Shown: piece after piece, positions 1,328 to 16,300 of the stretch
Layout: each line of letters opens with the position of its first letter
How positions within the stretch are numbered: the stretch's first letter is position 1
Virus record (IMG/VR): IMGVR_UViG_2571042372_000002
Length of the DNA: 23,274 nucleotides
Strand: one strand, 5' to 3'
Origin: a virus
Taxonomy: Duplodnaviria > Heunggongvirae > Uroviricota > Caudoviricetes
The notes under the pieces: generated by a model
Told to the model about the DNA's origin: nothing
Databases searched by the model: none
Seen by the model: the letters and a program-made list of their open reading frames with translations, nothing else
Position numbers and translations under genes: made by a program

Positions 1328-3227
1328 TGCAGCCGGTGCGATAGCTACAGGGCTTTTATCTCTCATTATTCCTGTTCCACTGACGACAGTTCAGTGGGCC
1401 AATAAACATTATTACCTTCCTAAAGAGTCGTCTTATACCCCGGGGCGATGGGAAACACTGCCGTTTCAGGTTGGCATCATGAACTGTATGGGCAACGATC
1501 TGATTCGCACGGTTAACCTGATTAAATCTGCCCGTGTTGGTTATACAAAGATGTTGCTGGGAGTGGAGGCTTATTTTATTGAGCATAAATCACGCAACAG
1601 CCTTCTTTTTCAGCCCACGGACTCAGCTGCTGAAGATTTTATGAAATCTCATGTTGAGCCAACGATAAGGGATGTTCCTGCATTGCTGGAGCTGGCTCCA
1701 TGGTTCGGAAGAAAACACCGCGATAATACGCTCACCCTGAAGCGTTTTTCCTCCGGTGTGGGGTTCTGGTGTCTGGGTGGTGCGGCAGCAAAAAACTACC
1801 GTGAAAAATCCGTGGATGTGGTCTGTTATGACGAGCTTTCCTCGTTCGAACCGGATGTTGAAAAAGAGGGTTCGCCAACCCTGCTGGGGGATAAACGTAT
1901 TGAGGGCTCTGTATGGCCAAAATCCATTCGCGGCTCGACGCCTAAAATCAAAGGCTCCTGCCAGATCGAAAAAGCCGCTAACGAGTCGGCACATTTCATG
2001 CGTTTTTATGTGCCCTGTCCGCACTGTGGGGAGGAGCAGTATCTGAAATTTGGCGATGATGCCTCGCCTTTCGGTCTTAAGTGGGAGAAGAATAAGCCAG
2101 AAAGTGTTTTCTACCTTTGTGAGCATCATGGCTGTGTGATCCATCAGTCTGAGCTTGACCAGAGTAACGGGCGGTGGATCTGTGAAAACACGGGCATGTG
2201 GACTCGTGACGGTCTGACATTTTTCAGCGCCGCGGATAATGAAATTCCGCCGCCGCGCTCCATCACATTCCATATCTGGACGGCGTACAGTCCGTTCACC
2301 ACCTGGGTACAGATTGTCTATGACTGGCTGGATGCACTGAAAGATCCCAACGGCCTGAAAACCTTTGTGAACACCACGCTGGGCGAGACCTGGGAAGAGG
2401 CCGTGGGCGAAAAACTCGATCACCAGGTGCTGATGGATAAGGTTGTGCGTTACACGGCTGCGGTGCCTTCCCGGGTGGTTTATCTGACGGCGGGCATTGA
2501 CTCGCAGCGAAACCGTTTTGAGATGTATGTCTGGGGATGGGCTCCGGGAGAGGAAGCCTTTCTGGTGGATAAAATCATCATTATGGGGCGTCCCGATGAG
2601 GACGAGACGCTGTTACGTGTGGATGTGGCGATCAACAAAAAATACCGCCATGCAGACGGAACCGAAATGACCATTTCCCGTGTCTGCTGGGACACCGGGG
2701 GGATCGATGGCGAAATTGTCTATCAGAGGTCAAAAAAACACGGTGTTTTCCGGGTGCTGCCGGTAAAAGGTGCATCTGTTTATGGCAAGCCGGTGATCAC
2801 CATGCCAAAAACCCGCAATCAGCGGGGCGTGTATCTGTGCGAAGTGGGGACGGACACCGCAAAAGAAATTCTCTATGCCCGTATGAAAGCCGATCCCACG
2901 CCTGCGGATGAAGCCACGTCGTATGCCATCCGTTTTCCTGATGATCCGGAGATTTTTTCGCAGACAGAGGCGCAGCAACTGGTGGCGGAAGAGCTTGTGG
3001 AGAAGTGGGAAAAAGGAAAGATGCGTCTGCTGTGGGATAACAAAAAGCGGCGTAACGAAGCGCTGGACTGCCTGGTGTATGCCTACGCGGCATTACGTGT
3101 GTCCGTGCAACGCTGGCAGCTTGATCTGGCTGTACTGGCAAAATCCCGGGAAGAAGAGACGACCCGGCCAACCCTTAAAGAACTGGCAGCGAAGCTGTCC
3201 GGAGGAGTGAATGGTTACAGTCGCTGA
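1299..3227 (+). CDS. A: terminase large subunit (lambda gpA homolog)
   Basis: Translation ...[23 protein letters not shown]...[20 protein letters not shown]...[14 protein letters not shown]...[10 protein letters not shown]... is collinear with lambda gpA. Start placed at ATG 1299 (MISDAQK...), giving a 29-nt overlap with Nu1 as in lambda; the same ORF is open from ATG 1257, so the start is uncertain. Confidence 0.93.
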
Positions 3228-3417: not shown

Positions 3418-5006
3418 AACGAACGCCTGTCCTGATTGATGTGAACGGCGTTCCGCTTCGTGAGAGTCTCAGCTACAACGGGGGCGGTGCAGGATTTGGC
3501 GGGCAAATGGCTGAGTGGTTGCCACCGGCGCAGAGTGCCGATGCGGCCCTGCTGCCCGCGTTGCGTCTGGGGAATGCCCGGGCAGATGATCTGGTGCGCA
3601 ATAACGGAATAGCGGCTAATGCGGTGGCTCTGCATAAGGATCACATTGTCGGGCATATGTTTCTGATCAGCTACCGTCCGAACTGGCGCTGGCTGGGGAT
3701 GCGGGAGACCGCAGCAAAAAGCTTTGTCGATGAGGTGGAGGCGGCCTGGTCGGAATACGCCGAAGGGATGTTTGGCGAGATCGACGTGGAAGGAAAACGC
3801 ACGTTCACGGAATTTATCCGTGAAGGTGTGGGCGTTCATGCGTTTAACGGCGAAATCTTTGTGCAGCCGGTCTGGGATACGGAAACCACGCAGTTATTCC
3901 GTACGCGTTTTAAAGCCGTGAGTCCGAAACGGGTGGACACGCCTGGACACGGTATGGGGAACCGTTTTCTGCGGGCCGGTGTGGAGGTCGATCGATATGG
4001 CCGTGCCGTCGCGTACCATATCTGTGAGGATGATTTTCCGTTCTCTGGTAGTGGACGATGGGAACGGATCCCGCGTGAACTTCCCACCGGGCGTCCGGCC
4101 ATGCTGCATATTTTCGAGCCGGTGGAGGACGGGCAGACCCGTGGGGCTAATCAGTTTTACAGCGTCATGGAACGGCTGAAGATGCTCGATTCCCTGCAGG
4201 CAACACAGCTTCAGTCGGCCATAGTGAAGGCGATGTATGCAGCGACGATTGAAAGTGAACTTGATACCGAAAAGGCCTTTGAATATATCGCCGGCGCGCC
4301 ACAGGAGCAGAAGGATAATCCGCTTATTAATATTCTGGAGAAGTTTTCCAGCTGGTATGACACGAATAACGTGACACTGGGCGGTGTCAAAATTCCGCAC
4401 CTTTTCCCTGGTGATGATCTGAAACTACAGACTGCGCAGGATTCAGACAATGGATTTTCTGCGCTTGAACAGGCGCTGCTGCGGTATATCGCCGCCGGTC
4501 TTGGCGTTTCCTACGAACAGTTGTCCCGTGATTACTCGAAGGTCAGTTACTCAAGTGCCCGCGCCTCCGCCAATGAGTCGTGGCGCTATTTTATGGGGCG
4601 GCGAAAATTTATTGCGGCCCGGCTGGCCACGCAGATGTTTTCCTGCTGGCTGGAAGAGGCACTTCTTCGGGGGATTATTCGTCCGCCACGGGCACGTTTT
4701 GATTTTTATCAGGCGCGATCAGCCTGGTCACGGGCAGAGTGGATTGGTGCCGGAAGAATGGCCATTGACGGGCTCAAGGAAGTCCAGGAATCAGTGATGC
4801 GCATTGAGGCCGGACTGAGCACGTATGAGAAAGAGCTGGCGCTGATGGGCGAGGATTATCAGGACATTTTCCGCCAGCAGGTCAGGGAATCTGCTGAGCG
4901 GCAAAAAGCCGGACTCTCACGTCCGGTGTGGATAGAGCAGGCGTATCAGCAGCAGATAGCGGAGAGTCGCAGGCCGGAAGAGGAGACAACACCACGTGAG
5001 ACGTAA
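3414..5006 (+). CDS. B: portal protein (lambda gpB homolog)
   Basis: 530 aa, same size class as lambda B (533 aa) and same position. Motifs GGGAGFGGQ, ADDLVRNNG, FNGEIFVQ, GANQFYSVMERLKMLD, SALEQALLRYIAAGLGVSYEQLSR are conserved with lambda B as recalled. Confidence 0.93.
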   Translation: MKRTPVLIDVNGVPLRESLSYNGGGAGFGGQMAEWLPPAQSADAALLPALRLGNARADDLVRNNGIAANAVALHKDHIVGHMFLISYRPNWRWLGMRETAAKSFVDEVEAAWSEYAEGMFGEIDVEGKRTFTEFIREGVGVHAFNGEIFVQPVWDTETTQLFRTRFKAVSPKRVDTPGHGMGNRFLRAGVEVDRYGRAVAYHICEDDFPFSGSGRWERIPRELPTGRPAMLHIFEPVEDGQTRGANQFYSVMERLKMLDSLQATQLQSAIVKAMYAATIESELDTEKAFEYIAGAPQEQKDNPLINILEKFSSWYDTNNVTLGGVKIPHLFPGDDLKLQTAQDSDNGFSALEQALLRYIAAGLGVSYEQLSRDYSKVSYSSARASANESWRYFMGRRKFIAARLATQMFSCWLEEALLRGIIRPPRARFDFYQARSAWSRAEWIGAGRMAIDGLKEVQESVMRIEAGLSTYEKELALMGEDYQDIFRQQVRESAERQKAGLSRPVWIEQAYQQQIAESRRPEEETTPRET

Positions 5007-6942: not shown

Positions 6943-7971
6943 ATGGGATTGTTTACGACCCGCCAGTTACTCGGTTATACCGAACAAAAAGTTAAATTTC
7001 GTGCGCTGTTTCTGGAGCTGTTTTTCCGCCGTACGGTGAATTTCCATACCGAAGAGGTGATGCTGGACAAAATTACCGGAAAAACGCCGGTGGCGGCCTA
7101 TGTCTCCCCGGTTGTTGAAGGAAAAGTGCTGCGTCATCGTGGTGGTGAAACCCGCGTGTTGCGTCCGGGCTACGTCAAGCCGAAACACGAATTTAATTAC
7201 CAGCAGGCGGTTGAGCGCCTTCCTGGTGAAGATCCATCTCAACTGAATGATCCGGCTTACCGCCGTCTGCGTATCATTACCGATAACCTCAAACAGGAAG
7301 AGCACGCGATTGTCCAGGTGGAAGAAATGCAGGCGGTAAATGCTGTGTTGTATGGCAAATACACCATGGAAGGAGACCAGTTCGAGAAAATTGAGGTCGA
7401 TTTTGGCAGGTCGACGAAGAATAACATCACTCAGGGTAGTGGTAAGGAGTGGTCAAAACAGGATCGTGACACGTTCGATCCTACACATGATATTGACCTC
7501 TACTGCGACCTGGCCAGCGGTCTTGTGAATATTGCCATTATGGACGGTACCGTCTGGCGTCTTCTGAATGGTTTTAAGCTGTTCCGCGAAAAACTGGATA
7601 CCCGTCGCGGTTCAAATTCTCAACTCGAAACGGCAGTGAAAGATCTGGGCGCAGTGGTGTCCTTCAAGGGGTATTACGGCGATCTGGCCATTGTGGTGGC
7701 GAAAACGTCTTATATAGCAGAAGACGGTATCGAAAAACGTTATCTTCCAGATGGCATGCTGGTTCTGGGGAATACTGCTGCAGATGGGATCCGTTGTTAC
7801 GGTGCCATTCAGGATGCTCAGGCGTTGTCCGAAGGTGTGGTGGCCTCTTCCCGTTATCCGAAACACTGGCTGACGGTAGGGGATCCCGCCCGTGAATTTA
7901 CCATGACGCAGTCCGCGCCGCTGATGGTGTTGCCGGACCCGGATGAGTTTGTGGTGGTACAGGTGAAATAA
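6943..7971 (+). CDS. E: major capsid protein (lambda gpE homolog)
   Basis: 342 aa versus 341 aa in lambda, same position after D. N-terminal region (TTRQLLGYTEQKVKF..LFLELFFRRT) resembles lambda E (MSMYTTAQLLAANEQKFKFDPLFLRLFFRES). Confidence 0.93.
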   Translation: MGLFTTRQLLGYTEQKVKFRALFLELFFRRTVNFHTEEVMLDKITGKTPVAAYVSPVVEGKVLRHRGGETRVLRPGYVKPKHEFNYQQAVERLPGEDPSQLNDPAYRRLRIITDNLKQEEHAIVQVEEMQAVNAVLYGKYTMEGDQFEKIEVDFGRSTKNNITQGSGKEWSKQDRDTFDPTHDIDLYCDLASGLVNIAIMDGTVWRLLNGFKLFREKLDTRRGSNSQLETAVKDLGAVVSFKGYYGDLAIVVAKTSYIAEDGIEKRYLPDGMLVLGNTAADGIRCYGAIQDAQALSEGVVASSRYPKHWLTVGDPAREFTMTQSAPLMVLPDPDEFVVVQVK

Positions 7972-7978
7972 TCCGTGA

Positions 7979-8008
7979 GCGGGGGCGAAATGCCCCCGTG
8001 TCTTTTTT
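7979..8008 (+). terminator. intrinsic-terminator-like hairpin immediately after the major capsid gene
   Basis: CGGGGGC-GAAAT-GCCCCCG (7-bp GC stem) followed by TGTCTTTTTT, starting 8 nt after the E stop and ending before the FI ATG at 8023. Confidence 0.6.
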
Positions 8009-8022
8009 CACAGGGGGCTGAT

Positions 8023-8406
8023 ATGGCAACGAAAGAGCAAAATCTGAAACGTCTTCGTCAACTGGCTGACCTGCTGGGGCGCGAGGCGGATATATCCGGG
8101 AGTGCCGCAGAGATAGCGCAGCGGGTGGCAGAATGGGAAGAGGAGCTTGCTGTTTCCCCGGAGGGCATTATGCACTCTGATGAGAGCGGGGCTGATCAAA
8201 ATCACACAGACGATGGTGAGCAGTTGAACAACACGGATGCTCCGGATGATGTTAAAGCCGTCCGGGTACGGAAGTGCCTGCAAGTAATGGGGTATTGCCC
8301 GGAGACAGGTCGTCCCGTTGAGCTGGCGTTACGGGGTATGCGTGTTCTGGTGCCATCATCACTGGCAACGGCCATGATACAGCACGGAATGGCTGTTTAT
8401 GCGTGA
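8023..8406 (+). CDS. FI: DNA packaging / head assembly protein FI homolog
   Basis: Position between E and FII. Start placed at ATG 8023 with AGGGGG SD, giving 127 aa (about 132 aa in lambda), because the upstream GTG 7975 would put the terminator hairpin inside the coding region. Sequence is diverged from lambda FI; assignment is mainly by synteny and size. Confidence 0.7.
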   Translation: MATKEQNLKRLRQLADLLGREADISGSAAEIAQRVAEWEEELAVSPEGIMHSDESGADQNHTDDGEQLNNTDAPDDVKAVRVRKCLQVMGYCPETGRPVELALRGMRVLVPSSLATAMIQHGMAVYA

Positions 8407-8752
8407 TTTTCAGAATGCCTTTGATGCCGCCCTTGCCGGGGTGGACAGTACGATTGTTGAAGTGATGGGCATCAGTGCGCAGTTCACCTCCGGTGCACAG
8501 CGTGGCGGCGAGGTTCATGGCGTTTTTGACGATCCGGAGTCGCTGGGTTTTGCCAGTAGTGGGATCCGTATTGAAGGAAGTAACCCGTCATTATTTGTGC
8601 TTACGGATACGGTTTGTGCTGTACGGCGTGGTGACACGCTGACCATTAACGGCGAGATGTTCTGGGTGGACCGTGTTTCTCCGGATGACGGAGGGAGTTG
8701 TTATCTCTGGCTCAACCGGGGGCAACCACCTGCAGTTAACCGGCGACGATAA
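8399..8752 (+). CDS. FII: head-tail connector protein FII homolog
   Basis: 117 aa; C-terminal ...RGDTLTINGEMFWVDRVSPDDGGSCYLWLNRGQPPAVNRRR is near-identical to the lambda FII C-terminus as recalled. Overlaps the FI stop. Confidence 0.92.
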   Translation: MRDFQNAFDAALAGVDSTIVEVMGISAQFTSGAQRGGEVHGVFDDPESLGFASSGIRIEGSNPSLFVLTDTVCAVRRGDTLTINGEMFWVDRVSPDDGGSCYLWLNRGQPPAVNRRR

Positions 8753-8767
8753 ACGCAGGGTGAAATT

Positions 8768-9301
8768 ATGGCCATAAAAGGTCTTGAGCAGGCCGTTGAA
8801 AACCTCAGCCGGGTTCGTAAAAACGCCATTCCGGCGGCTTCAGCAATGGCCATTAACCGCGTGGCCACAACGGCGATTAATCAGTCTTCATCACTGGTTG
8901 CCTGTGAGACAAAGGTACGCCGGAAACTGGTAAAGGAAAGGGCCAGGCTGAAAAGGGCCACGGTCAAAAATCCGCAGGCCAGAATCAAAGTTAACCGGGG
9001 GGATTTGCCCGTAATCAGGCTGGGGATCAGGATGCTGGGGCGTCGCCCGAACAGCATACTTAAAGCCGGTCAGCATCGGTATCAGCGGGCGTTTATTCAG
9101 CAACTGAAAAATGGCCGGTGGCATGTCATGCAGCGTGTGGCCGGGAAAAACCGTTACCCCATTGATGTGGTGAAAATCCCGATGGCGGTGCCACTGAAAC
9201 AGGCATTTGATGAGAATGTTGACCGTATACGGCGTGAACGCCTGCCTAAAGAACTGGCATACGCGCTGCAGCATCAACTGAGAATGGTAATAAAGCGATG
9301 A
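8768..9301 (+). CDS. Z: tail completion protein Z homolog
   Basis: 177 aa (192 aa in lambda), at the Z position between FII and U; ATGA-type overlap with U. Confidence 0.85.
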   Translation: MAIKGLEQAVENLSRVRKNAIPAASAMAINRVATTAINQSSSLVACETKVRRKLVKERARLKRATVKNPQARIKVNRGDLPVIRLGIRMLGRRPNSILKAGQHRYQRAFIQQLKNGRWHVMQRVAGKNRYPIDVVKIPMAVPLKQAFDENVDRIRRERLPKELAYALQHQLRMVIKR

Positions 9302-9693
9302 AACATACTGAACTCCGTGCAGCCGTACTGGATGCACTCGAGCAGCATGAACACGGGGCGACGCTGTTTGATGGTCGCCCCGTTGTTTTTGACGAAGAGG
9401 ATTTTCCTGCGATCGCGGTTTATCTCACCGGCGCTGAGTATACCGGTGAAGAGCTGGATGCAGATACCTGGCGGGCCACGCTGCATATTGAAGTTTTCCT
9501 GCCTGCTCAGGTGCCGGATTCAGAGCTGGATTCGTGGATGGAGTCCCGGATTTATCCGGTGATGAGCGATATCCCGGCACTGGCAGGACTGATTACCACG
9601 ATGGTTACGCAGGGCTATGAGTACCGGCGCGACGACGATATGGCGTTATGGAGTTCAGCCGATCTGACTTATGTCATTACCTATGAAATGTGA
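9298..9693 (+). CDS. U: tail terminator protein U homolog
   Basis: 131 aa; [54 protein letters not shown]... is near-identical to lambda gpU. Confidence 0.95.
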
Positions 9694-9700
9694 GGACGAT

Positions 9701-10453
9701 ATGCCAACACCAAATCCCCTTGAGCCGGTAAAAGGTGCCGGGACCACACTGTGGGTTTATAACGGCAAGGGTGATGCTTATGCAAACCCGTTGTCAGACA
9801 ATGACTGGTCGCGTCTGGCAAAAATTAAAGACCTGACGCCCGGCGAACTGACCGCTGAGTCCTATGACGATAACTACCTGGATGATGAAGATGCGGACTG
9901 GACCGCGACCGGGCAGGGGCAGAAATCCGCCGGAGATACCAGCTTCACGCTGGCGTGGATGCCCGGAGAGCAGGGGCAGAAAGGGCTTATAGGCTGGTTT
10001 GAAAGCGGCGATGTCCGTGCCTATAAAATCCGCTTCCCGAACGGCACGGTCGATGTGTTCCGTGGCTGGGTCAGCAGTATCGGTAAGGCGGTGACGGCGA
10101 AGGAAGTGATCACCCGTACGGTGAAGGTCACCAATGTGGGTAAACCTTCTGTAGCGGAAGAACGCAGCAAAATTACGCCGGTCAGTGCGATTAAGGTGAC
10201 GCCGACATCCGGTACGGTGGTGAAAGGGCAGAGCACCACGCTGACCGTGGCCTTCCAGCCGGAGGGCGCAACTGACAAGAGCTTCCGTGCGGTGTCAGCG
10301 GATAAAACAAAAGCCACCATTAGTGTGAAAGATATGACAATCACCGTGAACGGCGTTGCTGCAGGCAAGGTCAACATTCCGGTTGTATCCGGTAATGGTG
10401 AACTTGCTGCGGTTGCAGAAATCACTGTCACCGAAGCGGGCGCTGCAGGGTAA
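9701..10453 (+). CDS. V: major tail protein V homolog (with C-terminal Ig-like domain)
   Basis: Start at ATG 9701 with [27 protein letters not shown]...[20 protein letters not shown]...[31 protein letters not shown] is near-identical to lambda gpV. The ORF track's upstream start at 9671 is less likely. Confidence 0.93.
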
Positions 10454-10466
10454 ACGGAGGTAATAC

Positions 10467-10898
10467 ATGTTCCTGAAAACCGAATCATTTGAACATAACG
10501 GCGTGACCGTCACGCTTTCTGAACTGTCAGCCCTGCAGCGTATTGAGCATCTCGCCCTGATGAAACAGCAGGCAGAACAGGCGGAATCCTGCGGCAACCG
10601 GCAGGTTACTGTGGAAGACGCCATCAGAACCGGTGCTTTTGTGGTGGCGATGTCCCTGTGGCATAACCATCCACAGAAAACGCAGTCACCGTCAATGAAT
10701 GAGGCCGTGATGAAGATAGAGCAGGAAGTGCTTACCACCTGGCCCGCGGATGCCATTGCCCGGGCGGAAAACGTGGTGTACCGGCTGTCCGGTATGATCG
10801 AAGCTGTTCGTCCGGATACTGATATTACTGAAGTGGCGAAAAATAACACGCTGACTGATGATGATTTTTCTGCGGGAAAGTGTTCGACGGTGAGCTGA
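10467..10898 (+). CDS. G: tail assembly chaperone G homolog
   Basis: 143 aa; MFLKTESFEHNGVTVTLSELSALQRIEHLALMK...SAGKCSTVS is near-identical to lambda gpG. GGAGG SD upstream. Confidence 0.95.
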   Translation: MFLKTESFEHNGVTVTLSELSALQRIEHLALMKQQAEQAESCGNRQVTVEDAIRTGAFVVAMSLWHNHPQKTQSPSMNEAVMKIEQEVLTTWPADAIARAENVVYRLSGMIEAVRPDTDITEVAKNNTLTDDDFSAGKCSTVS

Positions 10899-11326
10899 GT
10901 TTTGCCCTGAAACTGGCGCGAGAGATGGGGCGACCTGACTGGCGCGCCATGCTTGCCGGGATGTCATCCACGGAGTATGCCGACTGGCACCGCTTTTACA
11001 GTACCCATTATTTTCATGATGTTCTGCTGGATATGCACTTTTCCGGGCTGACGTACACTGTGCTCAGCCTGTTTTTCAGCGATCCGGATATGCATCCCTC
11101 TGATTTCAGTCTGCTTGTCCCCCGGCATGAGGAAGAGCAGGTGGAGAGGCCGGATGAGGACAAAATGCTGATGCAGAAAGCGGCAGGGCTTACCGGAGGC
11201 GTCCGCTTCGGTGGGGACGGAGGGCGCGATATTTTATCGTCTGCGGATGTGGCGGATGTCATGGTGGATGATGCCGCATTAATGATGGCTTCAGCAGGGA
11301 TCGCGGGAGGAGTCCGGTATGGCTGA
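10467..11326 (+). CDS. T: tail assembly protein G-T fusion (made by -1 frameshift at 10874-10880; T portion is 10880..11326 in the -1 frame)
   Basis: The -1 frame ORF 10880..11326 has no plausible independent start or SD, overlaps the G 3' end, and ends 8 nt into H, as for lambda gpGT. Confidence 0.8.
10874..10880 (+). promoter_or_regulatory. programmed -1 ribosomal frameshift slippery heptamer G GGA AAG (G to G-T fusion)
   Basis: GGGAAAG sits in the X_XXY_YYZ register relative to the G frame (codons GCG GGA AAG TGT give A G K C). The -1 frame is open from 10880 to 11326 and encodes a T-like protein. Same heptamer and position as the lambda G/GT frameshift. Confidence 0.85.
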
Positions 11327-13898
11327 ACCGGTAGGCGATCTGGTCGTTGATTTAAGTCTGGATGCTGTCCGTTTTGATGAGCAGATGAGCCGGGTAAGGC
11401 GTCATTTTTCAGGTCTGGATACCGACGCCAGAAAAACCGCCAGTGCTGTTGAACAGGGCCTGAGCCGCCAGGCGCTGGCTGCACAGAAAGCGGGGATTTC
11501 CGTCGGGCAGTATAAAGCCGCCATGCGTATGCTGCCTGCACAGTTCACCGACGTGGCCACGCAGCTTGCCGGTGGTCAGAATCCCTGGCTGATCCTGCTG
11601 CAACAGGGTGGTCAGGTTAAGGACTCCTTCGGCGGGATGATCCCCATGTTCCGGGGGCTTGCCGGTGCGATCACCCTGCCGATGGTCGGGGCCACCTCGC
11701 TGGCGGTGGCGACCGGTGCGCTGGCGTATGCCTGGTATCAGGGTAACTCAACCCTGTCCGATTTCAACAAAACGCTGGTCCTTTCCGGCAATCAGTCGGG
11801 TCTGACGGCAGATCGTATGCTGGTCCTGTCCAGAGCCGGGCAGGCGGCAGGGCTGACGTTTAACCAGACCAGCGAGTCACTCAGCGCACTGGTTAAGGCG
11901 GGAGTAAGCGGTGAGGCTCAGATTGCATCCATCAGCCAGAGTGTGGCGCGTTTCTCCTCTGCATCCGGCGTGGAGGTGGACAAGGTCGCTGAAGCCTTCG
12001 GGAAGCTGACCACTGACCCGACGTCGGGGCTGACGGCGATGGCGCGCCAGTTCCATAACGTAACGGCGGAGCAGATTGCGTATGTTGCTCAGTTGCAGCG
12101 TTCCGGCGATGAATCCGGGGCATTGCAGGCGGCGAACGAGGCCGCAACGAAAGGGTTTGATGACCAGACCCGACGCCTGAAAGAGAACATGGGCACGCTG
12201 GAAACCTGGGCAGACAGGACAGCACGGGCATTCAAATCCATGTGGGATGCGGTGCTGGATATTGGTCGTCCGGAATCCTCAGCGGATATGCTCGCCAGTG
12301 CGCAGAAGGCATTTGATGAGGCGGATAAAAAATGGCAGTGGTACCAGAGCCGGAGCCAGCGCCGGGGAAAGACCTCCTCTTTTCGTGCGAACCTTCAGGG
12401 GGCATGGGATGATCGTGAAAAGGCCCGTCTGGGTCTGGCAGCGGCCACGCTGCAGTCGGATATGGAAAAAGCCGGTGAACTGGCGGCAAGGGACAGGGCT
12501 GAGCGTGAGTCGTCACGGCTGAAATATACCGAAGAGGCGCAGAAGGCTTACGAACGGCTGCAGACGCCGCTGGAGAAATATACCGCCCGTCAGGAAGAAC
12601 TGAACAAGGCACTGAAAGACGGGAAAATCCTGCAGGCGGATTACAACACGCTGATGGCGGCGGCGAAAAAGGATTATGAAGCGACGCTGAAAAAGCCGAA
12701 ACAGTCCGGCGTGAAGGTGTCTGCGGGCGATCGTCAGGAAGACAGTGCTCATGCTGCTCTGCTGACGCTTCAGGCAGAACTCCGGACGCTGGAGAAGCAT
12801 GCCGGAGCAAATGAGAAAATCAGCCAGCAGCGCCGGGATTTGTGGAAGGCGGAGAGTCAGTTCGCGGTACTGGAGGAGGCCGCCACGAAACGGCAGTTAT
12901 CTGAGCAGGAGAAATCCCTGCTGGCGCATGAAGATGAGACGCTGGAGTACAAACGCCAGCTGGCTGAGCTGGGAGACAAGATTGAACACCAGAAGCGCCT
13001 GAACGAGCTGGCGCAGCAGGCGGATAAATTCGCACAGCAGCAACGGGCAAAACGGGCCGCAATCAGCGCAAAAGCCCGCGGCCTCACCGACCGTCAGGCG
13101 CAGCGGGAGTCGGAAGAGCAGCGCCTTCGTGAGGTGTACGGTGATAATCCGGCTGCGCTGGCGAAGGCCACATCGGCACTGAAAAAGACCTGGGCGGCTG
13201 AAGACCAGCTTCGCGGGAACTGGATGGCAGGCCTGAAGTCCGGCTGGAGTGAGTGGGAAGAGAGCGCCACGGACAGTATGTCGCAGGTAAAAAGTGCAGC
13301 CACGCAGACCTTTGATGGTATTGCGCAGAATATGGCGGCGATGCTGACCGGCAGTGAACAGAACTGGCGCAGCTTCACCCGTTCCGTGCTGTCCATGATG
13401 ACAGAAATTCTGCTTAAGCAGGCAATGGTGGGGATTGTCGGGAGTATCGGCAGCGCTATTGGCGGGGCTGTTGGTGGCGGCGCATCCGCGTCAGGCGGTA
13501 CAGCCATTCAGGCCGCTGCGGCGAAACTCCATTTTGCAACCGGAGGATTTACGGGAACCGGCGGCAAATATGAGCCAGCGGGGATTGTTCACCGTGGTGA
13601 ATTTGTCTTCACGAAGGAGGCAACCAGCCGGATTGGCGTGGGAAATCTCTACCGGCTGATGCGCGGCTATGCCACCGGCGGTTATGTCGGTGGCACCGGA
13701 AGTCCGGCGCAAATGCGGCGTTCAGAGGGTATCAGGTTTGAGCAGAACAACAACGTGGTGATTCAGAACGACGGTACGAATGGTCTGCCAGGTCCACAGA
13801 TGATGAAGGCGGTGTATGACATGGCCCGCAAGGGTGCCCGTGATGAAATCCAGGCACAGATGCGCGATGGTGGTCTGTTCTCCGGAGGTGGACGATGA
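11319..13898 (+). CDS. H: tail tape measure protein H homolog
   Basis: 859 aa (853 aa in lambda). N-terminus MAEPVGDLVVDLSLDAVRFDEQM... and C-terminus ...ARKGARDEIQAQMRDGGLFSGGGR are near-identical to lambda gpH as recalled. Confidence 0.95.
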   Translation: MAEPVGDLVVDLSLDAVRFDEQMSRVRRHFSGLDTDARKTASAVEQGLSRQALAAQKAGISVGQYKAAMRMLPAQFTDVATQLAGGQNPWLILLQQGGQVKDSFGGMIPMFRGLAGAITLPMVGATSLAVATGALAYAWYQGNSTLSDFNKTLVLSGNQSGLTADRMLVLSRAGQAAGLTFNQTSESLSALVKAGVSGEAQIASISQSVARFSSASGVEVDKVAEAFGKLTTDPTSGLTAMARQFHNVTAEQIAYVAQLQRSGDESGALQAANEAATKGFDDQTRRLKENMGTLETWADRTARAFKSMWDAVLDIGRPESSADMLASAQKAFDEADKKWQWYQSRSQRRGKTSSFRANLQGAWDDREKARLGLAAATLQSDMEKAGELAARDRAERESSRLKYTEEAQKAYERLQTPLEKYTARQEELNKALKDGKILQADYNTLMAAAKKDYEATLKKPKQSGVKVSAGDRQEDSAHAALLTLQAELRTLEKHAGANEKISQQRRDLWKAESQFAVLEEAATKRQLSEQEKSLLAHEDETLEYKRQLAELGDKIEHQKRLNELAQQADKFAQQQRAKRAAISAKARGLTDRQAQRESEEQRLREVYGDNPAALAKATSALKKTWAAEDQLRGNWMAGLKSGWSEWEESATDSMSQVKSAATQTFDGIAQNMAAMLTGSEQNWRSFTRSVLSMMTEILLKQAMVGIVGSIGSAIGGAVGGGASASGGTAIQAAAAKLHFATGGFTGTGGKYEPAGIVHRGEFVFTKEATSRIGVGNLYRLMRGYATGGYVGGTGSPAQMRRSEGIRFEQNNNVVIQNDGTNGLPGPQMMKAVYDMARKGARDEIQAQMRDGGLFSGGGR

Positions 13899-14224
13899 AA
13901 ACCTTCCGCTGGAAAGTGAAACCCGGGATGGATGTGACATCGGCTCCTTCCGTCAGGGAGGTGCGCTTTGGTGATGGCTATTCCCAGCGTGCGCCTGCCG
14001 GGCTGAACGCTGACCTGAAAACGTACAGCGTGACGCTGTCTGTCTCCCGTGAGGAGGCCACGGCGCTGGAGTCGTTTCTGGCTGAGCACGGGGGCTGGAA
14101 GGCCTTTCTGTGGACGCCGCCTTATGGTTACAGGCAGATAAAGGTGACCTGCGCAAAATGGTCGTCGCGGGTCAGTATGCTGCGTGTTGAGTTCAGCGCA
14201 GAGTTTGAACAGGTGGTGAACTGA
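13895..14224 (+). CDS. M: minor tail protein M homolog
   Basis: 109 aa, same size as lambda M, immediately after H with ATGA overlap; MKTFRWKVKPGMDV... is lambda-like. Confidence 0.9.
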   Translation: MKTFRWKVKPGMDVTSAPSVREVRFGDGYSQRAPAGLNADLKTYSVTLSVSREEATALESFLAEHGGWKAFLWTPPYGYRQIKVTCAKWSSRVSMLRVEFSAEFEQVVN

Positions 14225-14922
14225 TGCAGGATATCCGGCAGGAAACATTGAATGAATGCACCCGTGCGGAGCAGTCGGCCAGCGTGGTGCTCTGGGAAAT
14301 CGATCTGACAGAGGTCGGTGGAGAACGTTATTTTTTCTGTAATGAGCAGAACGAAAAAGGTGAGCCGGTCACCTGGCAGGGGCGACAGTATCAGCCGTAT
14401 CCCATTCAGGGGAGTAGTTTTGAACTGAATGGCAAAGGCACCAGTACGCGCCCCACGCTGACGGTTTCTAACCTGTACGGTATGGTCACCGGGATGGTGG
14501 AAGATCTGCAGAGTCTGGTCGGCGGAACGGTGGTCAGGCGTAAGGTTTACGCCCGTTTTCTGGATGCGGTGAACTTCGTCAACGGAAACAGCGACGCCGA
14601 TCCGGAGCAGGAGGTGATCAGCCGCTGGCGCATCGAGCAGTGCAGCGAACTGAGTGCGGTCAGTGCCTCCTTTGTACTGTCCACACCGACGGAAACGGAT
14701 GGTGCCGTTTTTCCGGGGCGCATCATGCTGGCTAATACCTGCACCTGGACCTATCGCGGTGATGAGTGCGGTTATCACGGTCCGGCGGTCGCGGATGAAT
14801 ATGATCAGCCGACTTCCGATATCACGAAGGATAAATGCAGCAAATGCCTGAGCGGCTGTAAGTTTCGCAATAACGTCGGCAACTTTGGCGGCTTCCTTTC
14901 CATTAACAAACTTTCGCAGTAA
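14224..14922 (+). CDS. L: minor tail protein L homolog
   Basis: 232 aa, same size and position as lambda L; Cys-rich C-terminal segment (CTWTYRGDECGYHG...CSKCLSGCKF) as in lambda L. Confidence 0.9.
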   Translation: MQDIRQETLNECTRAEQSASVVLWEIDLTEVGGERYFFCNEQNEKGEPVTWQGRQYQPYPIQGSSFELNGKGTSTRPTLTVSNLYGMVTGMVEDLQSLVGGTVVRRKVYARFLDAVNFVNGNSDADPEQEVISRWRIEQCSELSAVSASFVLSTPTETDGAVFPGRIMLANTCTWTYRGDECGYHGPAVADEYDQPTSDITKDKCSKCLSGCKFRNNVGNFGGFLSINKLSQ

Positions 14923-14927
14923 ATCCC

Positions 14928-15671
14928 ATGACAGAGACAGAATCAGCGATTCTGGCGCATGCCCGGCGATGTGCGCCAGCGGAGTCGTGCGGCTTCGTGG
15001 TGAGAGCGCCGGAGGGGGAAAGATATTTTCCCTGCGTGAATATCTCCGGTGAGCCGGAGGCGTATTTCCGGATGGCTCCGGAGGACTGGCTGCAGGCAGA
15101 GATGCAGGGTGAGATTGTGGCGCTGGTCCACAGTCATCCCGGTGGTCTGCCCTGGCTGAGTGAGGCCGACCGGCGGCTGCAGGTGCAGAGTGATTTGCCG
15201 TGGTGGCTGGTCTGCCGGGGGGCGATTCATAAGTTCCGCTGTGTGCCGCATCTCACCGGGCGGCGCTTTGAGCACGGGGTGACGGACTGTTACACGCTGT
15301 TCCGGGACGCTTACCATCTGGCGGGGATTGAGATGCCGGACTTTCATCGTGAGGATGACTGGTGGCGTAACGGCCAGAATCTCTATCTTGATAATCTGGA
15401 GGCCACAGGGCTGTATCAGGTGCCGTTGTCAGCGGCGCAGCCGGGCGATGTGCTGCTGTGCTGCTTTGGTTCATCGGTGCCGAATCATGCCGCTATTTAC
15501 TGTGGTGACGGCGAGCTGCTGCACCATATTCCTGAACAACTGAGTAAACGAGAGAGGTATACCGACAAATGGCAGCGACGCACACACTCCCTCTGGCGTC
15601 ACCGGGCATGGCGCGCATCTGCCTTTACGGGGATTTACAACGATTTGGCCGCCGCATCGACCTTCGTGTGA
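14928..15671 (+). CDS. K: tail tip assembly protein K homolog (JAMM/MPN plus NlpC/P60-like)
   Basis: The C-terminal 199 aa from M49 (nt 15072) match the lambda K protein as I recall its annotation. The full ORF adds 48 N-terminal residues. JAMM-type motif HSHPGGLPWLSEAD (HxHx7Sx2D) is at 15129-15170. Overlaps I by 103 nt as in lambda. Confidence 0.88.
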   Translation: MTETESAILAHARRCAPAESCGFVVRAPEGERYFPCVNISGEPEAYFRMAPEDWLQAEMQGEIVALVHSHPGGLPWLSEADRRLQVQSDLPWWLVCRGAIHKFRCVPHLTGRRFEHGVTDCYTLFRDAYHLAGIEMPDFHREDDWWRNGQNLYLDNLEATGLYQVPLSAAQPGDVLLCCFGSSVPNHAAIYCGDGELLHHIPEQLSKRERYTDKWQRRTHSLWRHRAWRASAFTGIYNDLAAASTFV

Positions 15672-16240
15672 AAACGGGGGCTGAAGCCATCCGCGCACTG
15701 GCCACACAGCTCCCGGTGTTTCGTCAGAAACTGAGCGACGGCTGGTATCAGGTACGGATTGCCGGGCGGGACGTCAGCACGTCCGGGTTAACGGCGCAGT
15801 TACATGAGACTCTGCCTGATGGCGCTGTGATTCATATTGTTCCCAGAGTCGCCGGGGCCAAGTCAGGTGGCGTATTCCAGATTGTCCTGGGGGCTGCCGC
15901 CATTGCCGGATCATTCTTTACCGCCGGAGCCACCCTTGCAGCATGGGGGGCAGCCATTGGGGCCGGTGGTATGACCGGCATCCTGTTTTCTCTCGGTGCC
16001 AGTATGGTGCTCGGTGGTGTGGCGCAGATGCTGGCACCGAAAGCCAGAACTCCCCGTACACAGACAACGGATAACGGCAAACAGAACACCTATTTCTCCT
16101 CACTGGATAACATGGTTGCCCAGGGCAATGTTCTGCCGGTTCTGTACGGTGAAATGCGCGTGGGGTCACGCGTGGTTTCTCAGGAGATCAGCACGGCAGA
16201 CGAAGGGGATGGTGGTCAGGTTGTGGTGATTGGTCGCTGA
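15569..16240 (+). CDS. I: tail tip assembly protein I homolog
   Basis: 223 aa; MAATHTLPLASPGMARICLYGDLQRFGRRIDLRVKTGAEAIRALATQLP... is near-identical to lambda gpI. Confidence 0.93.
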   Translation: MAATHTLPLASPGMARICLYGDLQRFGRRIDLRVKTGAEAIRALATQLPVFRQKLSDGWYQVRIAGRDVSTSGLTAQLHETLPDGAVIHIVPRVAGAKSGGVFQIVLGAAAIAGSFFTAGATLAAWGAAIGAGGMTGILFSLGASMVLGGVAQMLAPKARTPRTQTTDNGKQNTYFSSLDNMVAQGNVLPVLYGEMRVGSRVVSQEISTADEGDGGQVVVIGR

Positions 16241-16258
16241 TGCAAAATGTTTTATGTG

Positions 16259-16284
16259 AAACCGCCTCCGGGCGGTTTTATCGT
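16259..16284 (+). terminator. terminator-like hairpin between I and J
   Basis: AAACCGCC-TCCG-GGCGGTTT (8-bp stem) followed by TATCGTTTAT, in the 60-nt I-J intergenic region, 17 nt upstream of the J ATG. Confidence 0.45.
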
Positions 16285-16300
16285 TTATGGAGCATGAGGA

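What the first reader, a model, noticed from the sequence alone, without database searches (positions are those of the whole stretch)
12270..12510. Possible mosaic patch inside the tape measure gene H
H appears nearly identical to lambda gpH over most of its length from memory, but residues about 318-395 (…ESSADMLASAQKAFDEADKKWQWYQSRSQRRGKTSSFRANLQGAWDDREKARLGLAAATLQSDMEKAGELAARDRAERE…) do not match what I recall of lambda. That would indicate a short recombinational replacement within a length-determining protein. This is a memory-based comparison and is low confidence.
Basis: inference. Interest (0 to 1): 0.2.

Follow-up and report, generated by a model that had tools for sequence, protein, structure and literature searches.

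The report
Swapped cassette inside phage tape-measure gene
A 240-base stretch in the tail tape-measure gene of this phage-21-like prophage really has been swapped for a different, common version by recombination; this is ordinary for lambda-like phages, but it sits where others have linked the protein to the route phage DNA takes through the cell's inner membrane.

Summary
Residues 319-397 of H (nt 12272-12512) are 27% identical to lambda or phage 21 gpH and 6 residues longer, while the rest of the protein is 92-95% identical. Its backbone is phage-21/E10-type. The patch is the largest of six or more tracts in H that match a second lambdoid allele (PhiR12_1; 3 mismatches in 241 nt), and the mosaic zone runs from about 7950 to 13180.

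The patch is not rare. Three allele classes occupy this site in 5,426 complete E. coli genomes: lambda type 3806 copies, window type 1903, YDC107/PhiR68_2 type 1069. The exact combination seen here occurs in one draft assembly only, so an assembly chimera is not excluded.

Six extra residues equal about 0.2 of a tail-tube ring, so a tail-length effect is unlikely. The cassette lies 15 residues after A304, where A304V frees lambda from ManYZ. It also falls in the aa 300-400 region that Saxton et al. (Nature 2026) linked to ManYZ independence and weak SNIPE sensitivity in PhiR68.2. A role in DNA entry is inferred, not shown. Ordinary mosaicism with a testable functional lead.

The parts
11319..13898 (+). 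Gene H, tail tape measure protein, 859 aa (lambda gpH family)
   Evidence: ORF. Pfam TMP_2 at residues 54-256 and Tape_meas_lam_C at 633-707. Lies between T and M. 86-89% aa identical to lambda and phage 21 H.
12272..12512 (+). The flagged patch: allelic cassette of the 'KKWQWYQSRS' class (W1 subtype), aa 319-397, +6 codons relative to lambda/21
   Evidence: 15-50% nt identity to lambda/21 but 95-100% to PhiR12_1. 139 donor-type informative sites. 3 mismatches to PhiR12_1. 27% aa identity to lambda, 98.7% to PhiR12_1, 70% to PhiR68_2.
12405..12430 (+). 26-nt island of phage-21/lambda-type sequence inside the patch (encodes WDDREKARL; the K is unique among 85 W-class alleles examined)
   Evidence: Sites 12413, 12416 and 12422 match phage 21, not PhiR12_1. 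All other W1 alleles read RENARL.
12264..12271 (+). Left exchange interval (within LDIGRP; 8 nt identical in both parental types)
   Evidence: Last phage-21-type site is 12263 and first donor-type site is 12272. E10 begins to differ from phage 21 at 12269. AF2 predicts a helix break at IGRPE.
12513..12516 (+). Right exchange interval (4 nt identical in both parental types)
   Evidence: Last donor-type site is 12512 and first phage-21-type site is 12517. The E10 cassette ends at 12509.
12228..12230 (+). Codon A304 (GCA), conserved here; lambda A304V gives ManYZ-independent infection
   Evidence: Alignment context TARA(304)FKSMW is identical to lambda. Literature: PMC13190303; Gupta et al., C->T at lambda nt 11,451. 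Lambda codon 304 is GCA starting at 11451.
11366..11468 (+). PhiR12_1-type tract in the 5' part of H (aa ~17-50)
   Evidence: 30 donor-type sites; 100% identical to PhiR12_1 and 67-75% to phage 21.
12881..12993 (+). Two short PhiR12_1-type tracts (12881-12905 and 12967-12993)
   Evidence: 14 and 11 donor-type sites.
13061..13180 (+). PhiR12_1-type tract (aa ~582-621)
   Evidence: 44 donor-type sites; 98-100% identical to PhiR12_1 and 62-67% to phage 21.
7950..13180 (+). Mosaic zone (FI, Z, U, V, G, T, H) in which phage-21-type and PhiR12_1-type tracts alternate. Outside it the window is 99-100% phage 21.
   Evidence: Three-way alignment. 62 switches with a median interval of 5.5 nt. Only 0.1-0.3% of sites are unexplained by either parent, except 10050-10500 at 9.3%.
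10874..10880 (+). G GGA AAG slippery heptamer at the end of G (G/GT chaperone frameshift site), context for H
   Evidence: Pattern match in the phase X XXY YYZ of the G ORF 10467-10898. Pfam Phage_TAC_2 and Phage_tail_T on the two ORFs.

Best explanation
The segment is a genuine allelic cassette of the lambda-family tape measure gene. It was placed in a phage-21-like prophage by homologous or homeologous recombination with a second lambdoid H allele of the PhiR12_1 type. It is one tract of a finely mosaic zone of about 5 kb that covers the tail-shaft genes.

Shown. The patch has sharp boundaries at short stretches identical in both parental types (LDIGRP on the left, SRLKY on the right). It is near-identical to a known donor type. 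At least three deeply diverged allele classes occupy this site in E. coli prophages. An independent clean swap of another class occurs at the same site in a complete genome (E10). Purifying selection acts within the class (dN/dS 0.12 with dS about 1.6).

Inferred, structure. The cassette encodes a helix, a short break, and the start of a long helix, directly after a Gly-Arg-Pro helix break.

Inferred, function. It is unlikely to change tail length, because +6 aa equals about 0.2 gpV ring. More probably it tunes the step at which ejected gpH* meets the inner membrane: dependence on the mannose permease ManYZ, and with it exposure to defences that act at that step (SNIPE, DicB).
For: Patch identity profile. 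Two-parent site analysis: 575 of 577 informative sites in H match phage 21 or PhiR12_1, in long runs. Junction sequences. Mosaic zone 7950-13180 with under 0.35% unexplained sites. Allele counts in 5,426 complete E. coli genomes: L 3806, W1 1903, W2 1069 places. E10 H equals the window's backbone and differs from phage 21 essentially only at 12269-12509, where it carries the W2 cassette. More than 40 different block combinations occur among 98 H genes. NG86: W1 vs W2 patch dS 1.6, dN 0.19, against flank dS about 0.2. AF2 single-sequence models of both allele types give the same architecture: break at GRP, a 25-residue helix, a 4-6-residue break, then a helix of about 80 residues.

Function, from the literature. 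PhiR68.2 is the only lambda-clade TMP phage in the Laub panel that does not need ManYZ and is only weakly hit by SNIPE, and its TMP differs in aa 300-400. Lambda A304V bypasses ManYZ. TurboID-ManZ labels gpH during injection (PMC13190303; Gupta et al.). The PhiR68_2 cassette is the sister subtype of the window's (70% aa identity, same length). gpH* forms the trans-envelope channel (PMC12617516). For the mechanism of exchange, Rad52-like phage recombinases make mosaics between diverged lambdoid sequences (PMC3945230).
Against: The exact arrangement (W1 cassette between lambda/21-type flanks) is absent from 5,426 complete E. coli genomes. The best full-length matches are 92.8% for 12100-12700 and 90.3% for 8000-11330. 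The exact protein is on a single draft-assembly contig. Exchange intervals are very short (median 5.5 nt), and 62 switches in about 5 kb is extreme for one event.

The functional link rests on one phage carrying a different subtype (W2). No W1-bearing phage was in the tested panel. A304 lies outside the cassette. The AF2 models are single-sequence with mean pLDDT 68-74.
Confidence: 0.75

Rival explanations
1. Assembly chimera. The source genome carries two lambdoid prophages, one phage-21-like and one PhiR12_1-like, and the draft assembly merged their similar tail-shaft genes into an artificial mosaic. The cassette would be real, but its position in this backbone would not.
For: The exact H protein is found on one contig of one draft assembly (GCA_000522365.1). 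No complete genome shares either the patch junctions or the FI-T mosaic. There are 62 switches with a median interval of 5.5 nt, and nearly every site is explained by one of two parents. E. coli genomes carry a median of 2 and up to 8 H copies.
Against: The parental types are only 50-90% identical across the zone and cannot be aligned in the patch, which is too divergent for repeat collapse. Switch intervals of 0-10 nt are too short for path switching in a k-mer graph. All reading frames from FI to H stay intact. In the head genes, where the two types are more similar (93-100%), the window follows one type without switching for about 250 informative sites. Clean cassette swaps at the same site exist in complete genomes (E10).
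Confidence: 0.12
2. Neutral ruler spacer. The middle of gpH only has to be a helix of the right length, so this segment drifts freely. The allele classes would be neutral hitch-hikers shuffled by recombination, with no effect on infection.
For: The segment lies between the two Pfam domains. Both allele types are predicted to be helical with the same layout and nearly the same length. The tape-measure role of H is established knowledge (Katsura 1987, cited in PMC10721106). Block combinations look freely reassorted.
Against: dN/dS within the W class is 0.12 despite saturated dS, so the residues are constrained. Motifs are shared across classes (ML..A..A[FY]..AD..W and WDDRExARL). The neighbouring A304V substitution and the PhiR68.2 phenotype point to a role in injection.
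Confidence: 0.35
3. Local divergence in place (hypermutation or accelerated evolution of this segment in this lineage) rather than import.
For: Divergence from lambda/21 is confined to a short segment.
Against: The segment has 3 mismatches in 241 nt to an allele already present in PhiR12_1 and is 92-98% identical to copies in 1223 E. coli genomes. The other tracts in H match the same donor type.
Confidence: 0.01
4. The patch hides another element: an overlapping gene (ORF 12247-12522 in the +1 frame, 91 aa) or a programmed -1 frameshift at the in-phase G GGA AAG at 12365-12371.
For: The +1 ORF coincides with the patch and is open in 83 of 85 W-class alleles. The heptamer is identical to, and in the same phase as, the G/GT slippery site.
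Against: The +1 peptide is 48% conserved between W1 and W2, against 72% for the H frame. dS in the H frame is saturated. Stop-free +1 runs of 54-113 codons are common throughout H. The heptamer is present in only 19 of about 85 W alleles, most of which read C GGT AAA. The window has 3 matches against 3.4 expected by chance.
Confidence: 0.02

Closest known systems
Lambda gpH (NP_040595.1, 853 aa) and phage 21 tape measure protein (UMO75431.1, 853 aa)
   Same: Same family, gene order and Pfam domains. 92-95% aa identity outside the patch. The phage 21 backbone is 100% identical at nt level in most 60-nt windows. A304 and its flanking helix are conserved.
   Different: Residues 319-397 are 27% identical and 6 residues longer. 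Further donor-type tracts at aa 17-50 and aa 521-621. The lambda C-terminal segment (aa ~790-830) also differs from the window, which is phage-21-like there.
PhiR12_1 tape-measure protein H (XSB41634.1, PV340549)
   Same: Cassette is 98.7% aa identical, with 3 nt mismatches in 241. It is also the source type of the other tracts in H and in FI to T.
   Different: Outside the tracts it is only 73-93% nt identical to the window, it is 857 aa long, and it starts MSQPVGD. It reads RENARL where the window reads REKARL.
PhiR68_2 (PhiR68.2) tape-measure protein H (XSB43506.1); also YDC107_1, E10, PhiR47_2, 2B8
   Same: Same cassette class (KKWQWYQSRS...RRGKT...), same +6 length, same boundaries, lambda-type flanks. 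PhiR68.2 is reported as ManYZ-independent and only weakly SNIPE-sensitive, with the aa 300-400 region singled out.
   Different: It is the sister subtype W2: 70% aa identity to the window's cassette, with dS about 1.6 between subtypes. The phenotype of W1 is untested.
HK97 tape measure protein / PtsG / FkpA paradigm (Cumby et al. 2015 Mol Microbiol, cited in PMC6832061)
   Same: The concept that a siphophage TMP determines which inner-membrane protein is needed for genome injection (cited from a reference list; details from my own knowledge).
   Different: A different TMP family and a different membrane protein. No sequence comparison was made here.
Lambdoid genome mosaicism through relaxed homologous recombination (De Paepe et al. 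2014, PMC3945230)
   Same: Exchange between diverged lambdoid sequences, with conserved sequence at the borders of the exchanged fragments.
   Different: Here the exchange is intragenic and unusually fine-grained, with tracts of 10-240 nt and exchange intervals of a few nucleotides.

Membership tests
Lambda-family tail tape measure protein (gpH) | Pfam TMP_2 N-terminal domain and Tape_meas_lam_C domain | tested here: met
   PF06791 at residues 54-256 (E 1e-69) and PF09718 at residues 633-707 (E 2e-21).
Lambda-family tail tape measure protein (gpH) | Position between the G/GT chaperone genes and M, with the G GGA AAG slippery site at the end of G | tested here: met
   Gene order V, G, T, H, M, L, K, I, J with matching Pfam families. 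Heptamer at 10874-10880 in the X XXY YYZ phase of G.
Lambda-family tail tape measure protein (gpH) | Full-length collinear similarity to lambda gpH, including the Gly-rich region and the C-terminal helix | tested here: met
   86.4% aa identity over 859 columns; the C-terminus ...MRDGGLFSGGGR is identical.
Lambda-family tail tape measure protein (gpH) | Sets tail length; cleaved to gpH*; ejected to form the trans-envelope channel | not testable with these tools
   Known for lambda (PMC12617516, PMC10721106). Needs virions.
Recombination-derived mosaic tract in a lambdoid phage | Abrupt identity discontinuity relative to the nearest backbone relative | tested here: met
   100% identity to phage 21/E10 falls to 15-50% and returns to 98-100% within about 20 nt at each edge.
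Recombination-derived mosaic tract in a lambdoid phage | A donor lineage carrying a near-identical tract | tested here: met
   PhiR12_1 and related prophages: 98.1% identity over 269 nt, 3 mismatches within the tract.
Recombination-derived mosaic tract in a lambdoid phage | Shared homology at the borders sufficient for homologous exchange | tested here: inconclusive
   Between the representative parents only 8, 8, 8 and 4 identical nt lie at the four switch points. Longer conserved flanks exist in other alleles, and the true parents are unknown.
Recombination-derived mosaic tract in a lambdoid phage | Junctions confirmed on independent molecules or genomes | tested here: not met
   No complete E. 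coli genome has the 12100-12700 arrangement above 92.8% identity. The exact protein is in one draft assembly only. An analogous swap with another allele is confirmed in E10.
ManYZ-independent / weakly SNIPE-sensitive TMP variant (PhiR68.2 type, Saxton et al. 2026) | Lambda-clade TMP with a divergent segment within aa 300-400 | tested here: met
   The divergent segment is aa 319-397. Paper text.
ManYZ-independent / weakly SNIPE-sensitive TMP variant (PhiR68.2 type, Saxton et al. 2026) | Same sequence type as the PhiR68.2 segment | tested here: inconclusive
   Same class, length and boundaries, but 69.6% aa identity (sister subtype W1 versus W2).
ManYZ-independent / weakly SNIPE-sensitive TMP variant (PhiR68.2 type, Saxton et al. 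2026) | Plaques on delta-manYZ hosts; reduced SNIPE sensitivity | not testable with these tools
   No W1-bearing phage was in the published panel (strain table).

The most novel reading that the evidence does not exclude
The aa 319-397 cassette of lambda-family tape measure proteins may be a swappable specificity module for the inner-membrane step of DNA injection. On this reading, three old allele classes (about 56%, 28% and 16% of typed copies in E. coli) are kept in the prophage pool because they set ManYZ dependence and exposure to entry-site defences (SNIPE, DicB). The W1 allele in this window would then make a phage-21-like virus ManYZ-independent, or route it through another membrane protein. 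The window, phage 21, PhiR63.2, PhiR57.1 and E10 would form a natural near-isogenic series for testing this.
Probability: 0.3. Interest if true: 0.55.

Novelty: new member of a known kind. Interest (0 to 1): 0.27.

Why it matters
As a sequence feature it is routine. Lambdoid phages are mosaics, and this allele is in about a fifth of complete E. coli genomes. Its value is as a lead. The swapped segment coincides with the only part of gpH so far tied to the choice of inner-membrane entry route: A304V next to it, and the PhiR68.2 aa 300-400 variant across it. Close relatives that differ mainly in this cassette already exist as isolated phages. If the cassette sets ManYZ dependence, typing it would predict which prophages evade defences that guard the ManYZ entry site. 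It would also explain why three old alleles persist side by side. The fine-grained mosaic around it (about 30 tracts in 5 kb) is also a useful case for studying homeologous recombination between co-resident prophages, provided it is not an assembly artefact.

Tried and rejected
(1) Overlapping gene. The +1-frame ORF 12247-12522 coincides with the patch but is rejected. Its peptide is less conserved than the H frame (48% vs 72%), dS in the H frame is saturated, and long open +1 runs are common in H.

(2) Programmed frameshift at the in-phase G GGA AAG (12365-12371). It is not conserved among W alleles and is not enriched.

(3) The search for homologous proteins with the 151-aa segment returned only short, often frameshifted fragments from Escherichia and Shigella, plus contaminants. 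It gave no view of wider diversity, and the resulting alignment was too poor to use for structure prediction.

(4) The genome-contig scan mostly recovered lambda DNA contamination in unrelated taxa. The only distant relatives were Rahnella (50%) and a Shigella prophage (39%), which do not align in the patch.

(5) I looked for more mapped ManYZ-bypass mutations in H. Burmeister 2021, Borin 2022 and Lucia-Sanz 2024 give no further positions, so only A304V (Gupta et al.) is available.

(6) The source paper for the PhiR phages (Brenes & Laub 2025) is not in the searchable library.

(7) A third independent lineage as the explanation for the FI-H zone is rejected. Private differences are only 0.1-0.3%, except in the V C-terminal segment.

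(8) AF2 was run without an alignment. The helix and break positions are indicative only (pLDDT 68-74).
Full report
WHAT THE WINDOW IS. The window holds the late-gene region (Nu1 to side tail fibre) of a phage-21-like lambdoid prophage. It is 97.6-97.8% identical over 95-98% of its length to phage 21 (OL657228), PhiR57_1, PhiR63_2 and ev017. Phage 21 coordinate 1 (cos) aligns at window coordinate 591. The exact H protein occurs on one 1.33-Mb scaffold of a draft bacterial assembly (GCA_000522365.1, KI929792.1), so this is an integrated prophage. Gene H is 11319-13898 (+) and encodes 859 aa. It carries Pfam TMP_2 (residues 54-256) and Tape_meas_lam_C (633-707). It lies between the G/T chaperone genes and M.

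THE OBSERVATION. Against lambda gpH and the phage 21 protein, residues 319-397 are 26.6% and 27.8% identical and contain 6 extra residues. The rest of the protein is 92.4% and 95.4% identical. In 60-nt windows, nucleotide identity drops from 95-100% to 15-50% between about 12279 and 12518 and returns to 98-100%.

The statement that H is otherwise nearly identical to lambda is not accurate. Overall nucleotide identity is 87.3%, and there are other divergent tracts.

WHERE THE PATCH COMES FROM. PhiR12_1 (PV340549) is a lambdoid phage whose H is only 73-93% identical to the window in most of the gene. It is 95-100% identical in exactly the tracts where phage 21 is not.
- Of 577 sites that distinguish the phage 21 and PhiR12_1 H genes, 575 carry one or the other base in the window, arranged in long runs.
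- The PhiR12_1-type tracts are 11366-11468, 11573-11585, 12272-12512 (139 sites), 12881-12905, 12967-12993 and 13061-13180.
- Inside the flagged patch the window has only three mismatches to PhiR12_1 (12413, 12416, 12422).
- All three are the phage-21/lambda base and lie in a 26-nt island encoding WDDREKARL, the one stretch of the patch where the two types can be aligned.
- The switch points fall in stretches of 8, 8, 8 and 4 nt that are identical in both types.

THE PATCH IS PART OF SOMETHING LARGER. A three-way alignment of the window, phage 21 and PhiR12_1 shows the wider pattern.
- The window is 99-100% phage-21-type from 600 to about 7950 and from about 13180 to 19830. One further PhiR12_1-type tract lies in the terminase gene at 2213-2984.
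- Between 7950 and 13180 (FI, Z, U, V, G, T, H) the two types alternate in about 30 tracts, with 62 switches and a median switch interval of 5.5 nt.
- This is not a third independent lineage. Only 0.1-0.3% of positions in the zone are unexplained by one of the two types.
- The exception is 10050-10500 (C-terminal part of V), where 9.3% of positions are unexplained and a third source is needed.

HOW COMMON THE ALLELE IS. Three allele classes occupy this site.
- L (lambda/21 type): ...DTAQEMLIKAEAAYKKADDIWNLRKDDYFVNDEARARYWDDREKARL...
- W1 (window, PhiR12_1).
- W2 (YDC107_1, PhiR68_2, PhiR47_2, 2B8, E10).

W1 and W2 share KKWQWYQSRS.RRGKT and the +6 length, and are about 70% identical to each other. 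In 5,426 complete E. coli genomes, megablast finds the L segment at 3806 places in 3009 genomes. It finds W1 at 1903 places in 1223 genomes and W2 at 1069 places in 972 genomes. The total is 8309 H-like places. W1 is also in 61 phage records, including a large set of Stx2a phages. The allele is therefore common.

The combination is not. Among 98 full-length H genes there are more than 40 block combinations. The window is the only one with a W1 cassette between lambda/21-type flanks. No complete E. coli genome matches 12100-12700 better than 92.8% or 8000-11330 better than 90.3% over full length.

An independent, clean example of cassette exchange at the same site exists. The H gene of E. coli E10 (a complete genome) has the window's backbone. 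It differs from phage 21 essentially only between 12269 and 12509, where it carries W2.

AGE AND CONSTRAINT. Between W1 and W2 the patch has dS about 1.6 and dN 0.19 (dN/dS 0.12). The flanks of the same gene pair have dS about 0.2. Between the W and L classes dS is saturated and dN is 0.65-0.78. The alleles are therefore much older than their current flanks and are under purifying selection. The classes keep a common frame and common motifs (ML..A..A[FY]..AD..W and WDDRExARL), so they are diverged homologues and not unrelated inserts.

STRUCTURE (soft evidence). Single-sequence AF2 models of the window segment (aa 230-470) and of an L-type fragment give the same layout.
- A helix ends at ...VLD.
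- A break follows at IGRP(E/D), which is the left edge of the cassette.
- Next comes a 25-residue helix (321-346).
- Then a 4-6-residue break (SQRRGK in W1, YFVN in L).
- Then a helix of about 80 residues.

pLDDT in the patch is 70-90, but no alignment was used. The authors of the Ur-lambda structure split gpH at residues 319/320 for their hexamer models of the trans-envelope channel (PMC12617516). That split coincides with the left edge.

WHAT IT PROBABLY DOES. A tail-length effect is unlikely. Lambda has 32 gpV rings for 853 residues of H (PMC10721106), about 27 residues per ring, so +6 residues is about 0.2 ring (inference).

A better-supported reading comes from the literature.
- Lambda needs the inner-membrane mannose permease ManYZ to inject DNA, and mutations in V or H bypass this (Scandella & Arber 1976, cited).
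- The mapped bypass mutation in H is A304V: C->T at lambda nt 11,451 in Gupta et al.. Lambda codon 304 is GCA starting at 11451.
- A304 is conserved in the window at 12228-12230, 15 residues before the cassette.
- Saxton et al. (Nature 2026, PMC13190303) found that TurboID-ManZ labels gpH during injection. Among phages with lambda-clade TMPs, the single one that neither needs ManYZ nor is strongly blocked by the membrane nuclease SNIPE is PhiR68.2. [quoted passage not shown]

I fetched PhiR68_2. Its region is the W2 cassette. The tested panel contained no W1 phage. It did contain PhiR63.2, a near-isogenic relative of this window that carries the L cassette. DicB, a prophage protein, also blocks the ManYZ route (PMC6832061).

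The inference is that the cassette tunes the inner-membrane step of injection and hence exposure to defences acting there. This would give a reason for three old alleles to persist. It rests on one phage of a sister subtype and is not shown for W1. I put it at roughly 0.3.

HOW THE MOSAIC AROSE. Homologous or homeologous recombination between lambdoid genomes is the expected mechanism, for example between an incoming phage and a resident prophage, or between co-resident prophages. E. coli genomes carry a median of 2 and up to 8 H copies. Phage Rad52-like recombinases are known to produce such mosaics between diverged sequences (PMC3945230).

The number of switches and their very short intervals are unusual. 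They would need repeated exchange or patchy heteroduplex repair. The arrangement is seen only in one draft assembly, so an assembly chimera remains possible (about 0.12). Several points argue against it.
- The two types are too divergent across the zone to be collapsed as a repeat.
- The switch intervals are far shorter than any assembly k-mer.
- All reading frames are intact.
- The more similar head genes show no switching.

REJECTED IDEAS. The +1-frame ORF 12247-12522, which coincides with the patch, is not conserved as a peptide (48% vs 72% for the H frame), and long open +1 runs are common in H. An in-phase G GGA AAG at 12365-12371, identical to the G/GT slippery site, is present in only 19 of about 85 W alleles and is not enriched. 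In-place hypermutation is excluded by the near-identical donor alleles.

VERDICT. The patch is real and is a recombinational replacement. It is a common allele in an uncommon setting, one tract of a wider mosaic, and irrelevant to tail length. Its position in the part of gpH linked to ManYZ dependence makes it a reasonable, cheap experimental lead. Novelty: a new arrangement of known parts. Interest is low to moderate.

Noticed in passing
window 7950-13180: The whole tail-shaft module (FI, Z, U, V, G, T, H) is a fine mosaic of phage-21-type and PhiR12_1-type sequence: about 30 donor tracts and 62 switches with a median switch interval of 5.5 nt. The flanking head and tail-tip genes are 99-100% phage 21. 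No complete E. coli genome matches 8000-11330 above 90.3% identity.
   Followed up: partly
window 10050-10500: The C-terminal part of the major tail gene V matches neither phage 21 nor PhiR12_1 (9.3% of positions unexplained, against 0.1-0.3% elsewhere in the zone). It comes from a third source.
   Followed up: no
window 2213-2984: A PhiR12_1-type tract (20 donor-type sites against 1) lies inside the terminase large-subunit gene, well away from the main mosaic zone.
   Followed up: no
window 12365-12371: G GGA AAG lies inside the patch in the same phase as the lambda G/GT -1 frameshift heptamer. A slip would end after 13 more codons. It is present in only 19 of about 85 W-class alleles, so it is probably chance.
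   Followed up: yes
window 12247-12522 (+1 frame relative to H): A 91-codon ATG ORF coincides almost exactly with the patch and is open in 83 of 85 W-class alleles, but its peptide is poorly conserved. It is judged non-coding.
   Followed up: yes
loci L010-L016, L018, L019, L021-L071 (genome-contig scan): Lambda-type H sequences sit on ~48.5-kb contigs or on tiny, low-coverage contigs in assemblies of unrelated taxa (Pseudomonas, Oceanobacillus, Chromatium, Shewanella, Bradyrhizobium, Streptomyces, Prevotella and others). This looks like lambda DNA contamination of public genome assemblies.
   Followed up: no
window ~22575-23274 (minus strand); L154 21257-22580: Genes for ABC-3 family permeases (sitC/sitD-like iron/manganese transporter) lie just beyond the tail-fibre genes, as annotated in phage 21. 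This is a moron cargo shared with phage 21.
   Followed up: no
L005 (E. coli E10, NZ_CP104533) 301-2880: The E10 H gene has the same backbone as the window, including several single-base variants absent from phage 21. It carries the W2 cassette at exactly the same site (12269-12509 in window coordinates). This is an independent cassette swap in a complete genome.
   Followed up: yes
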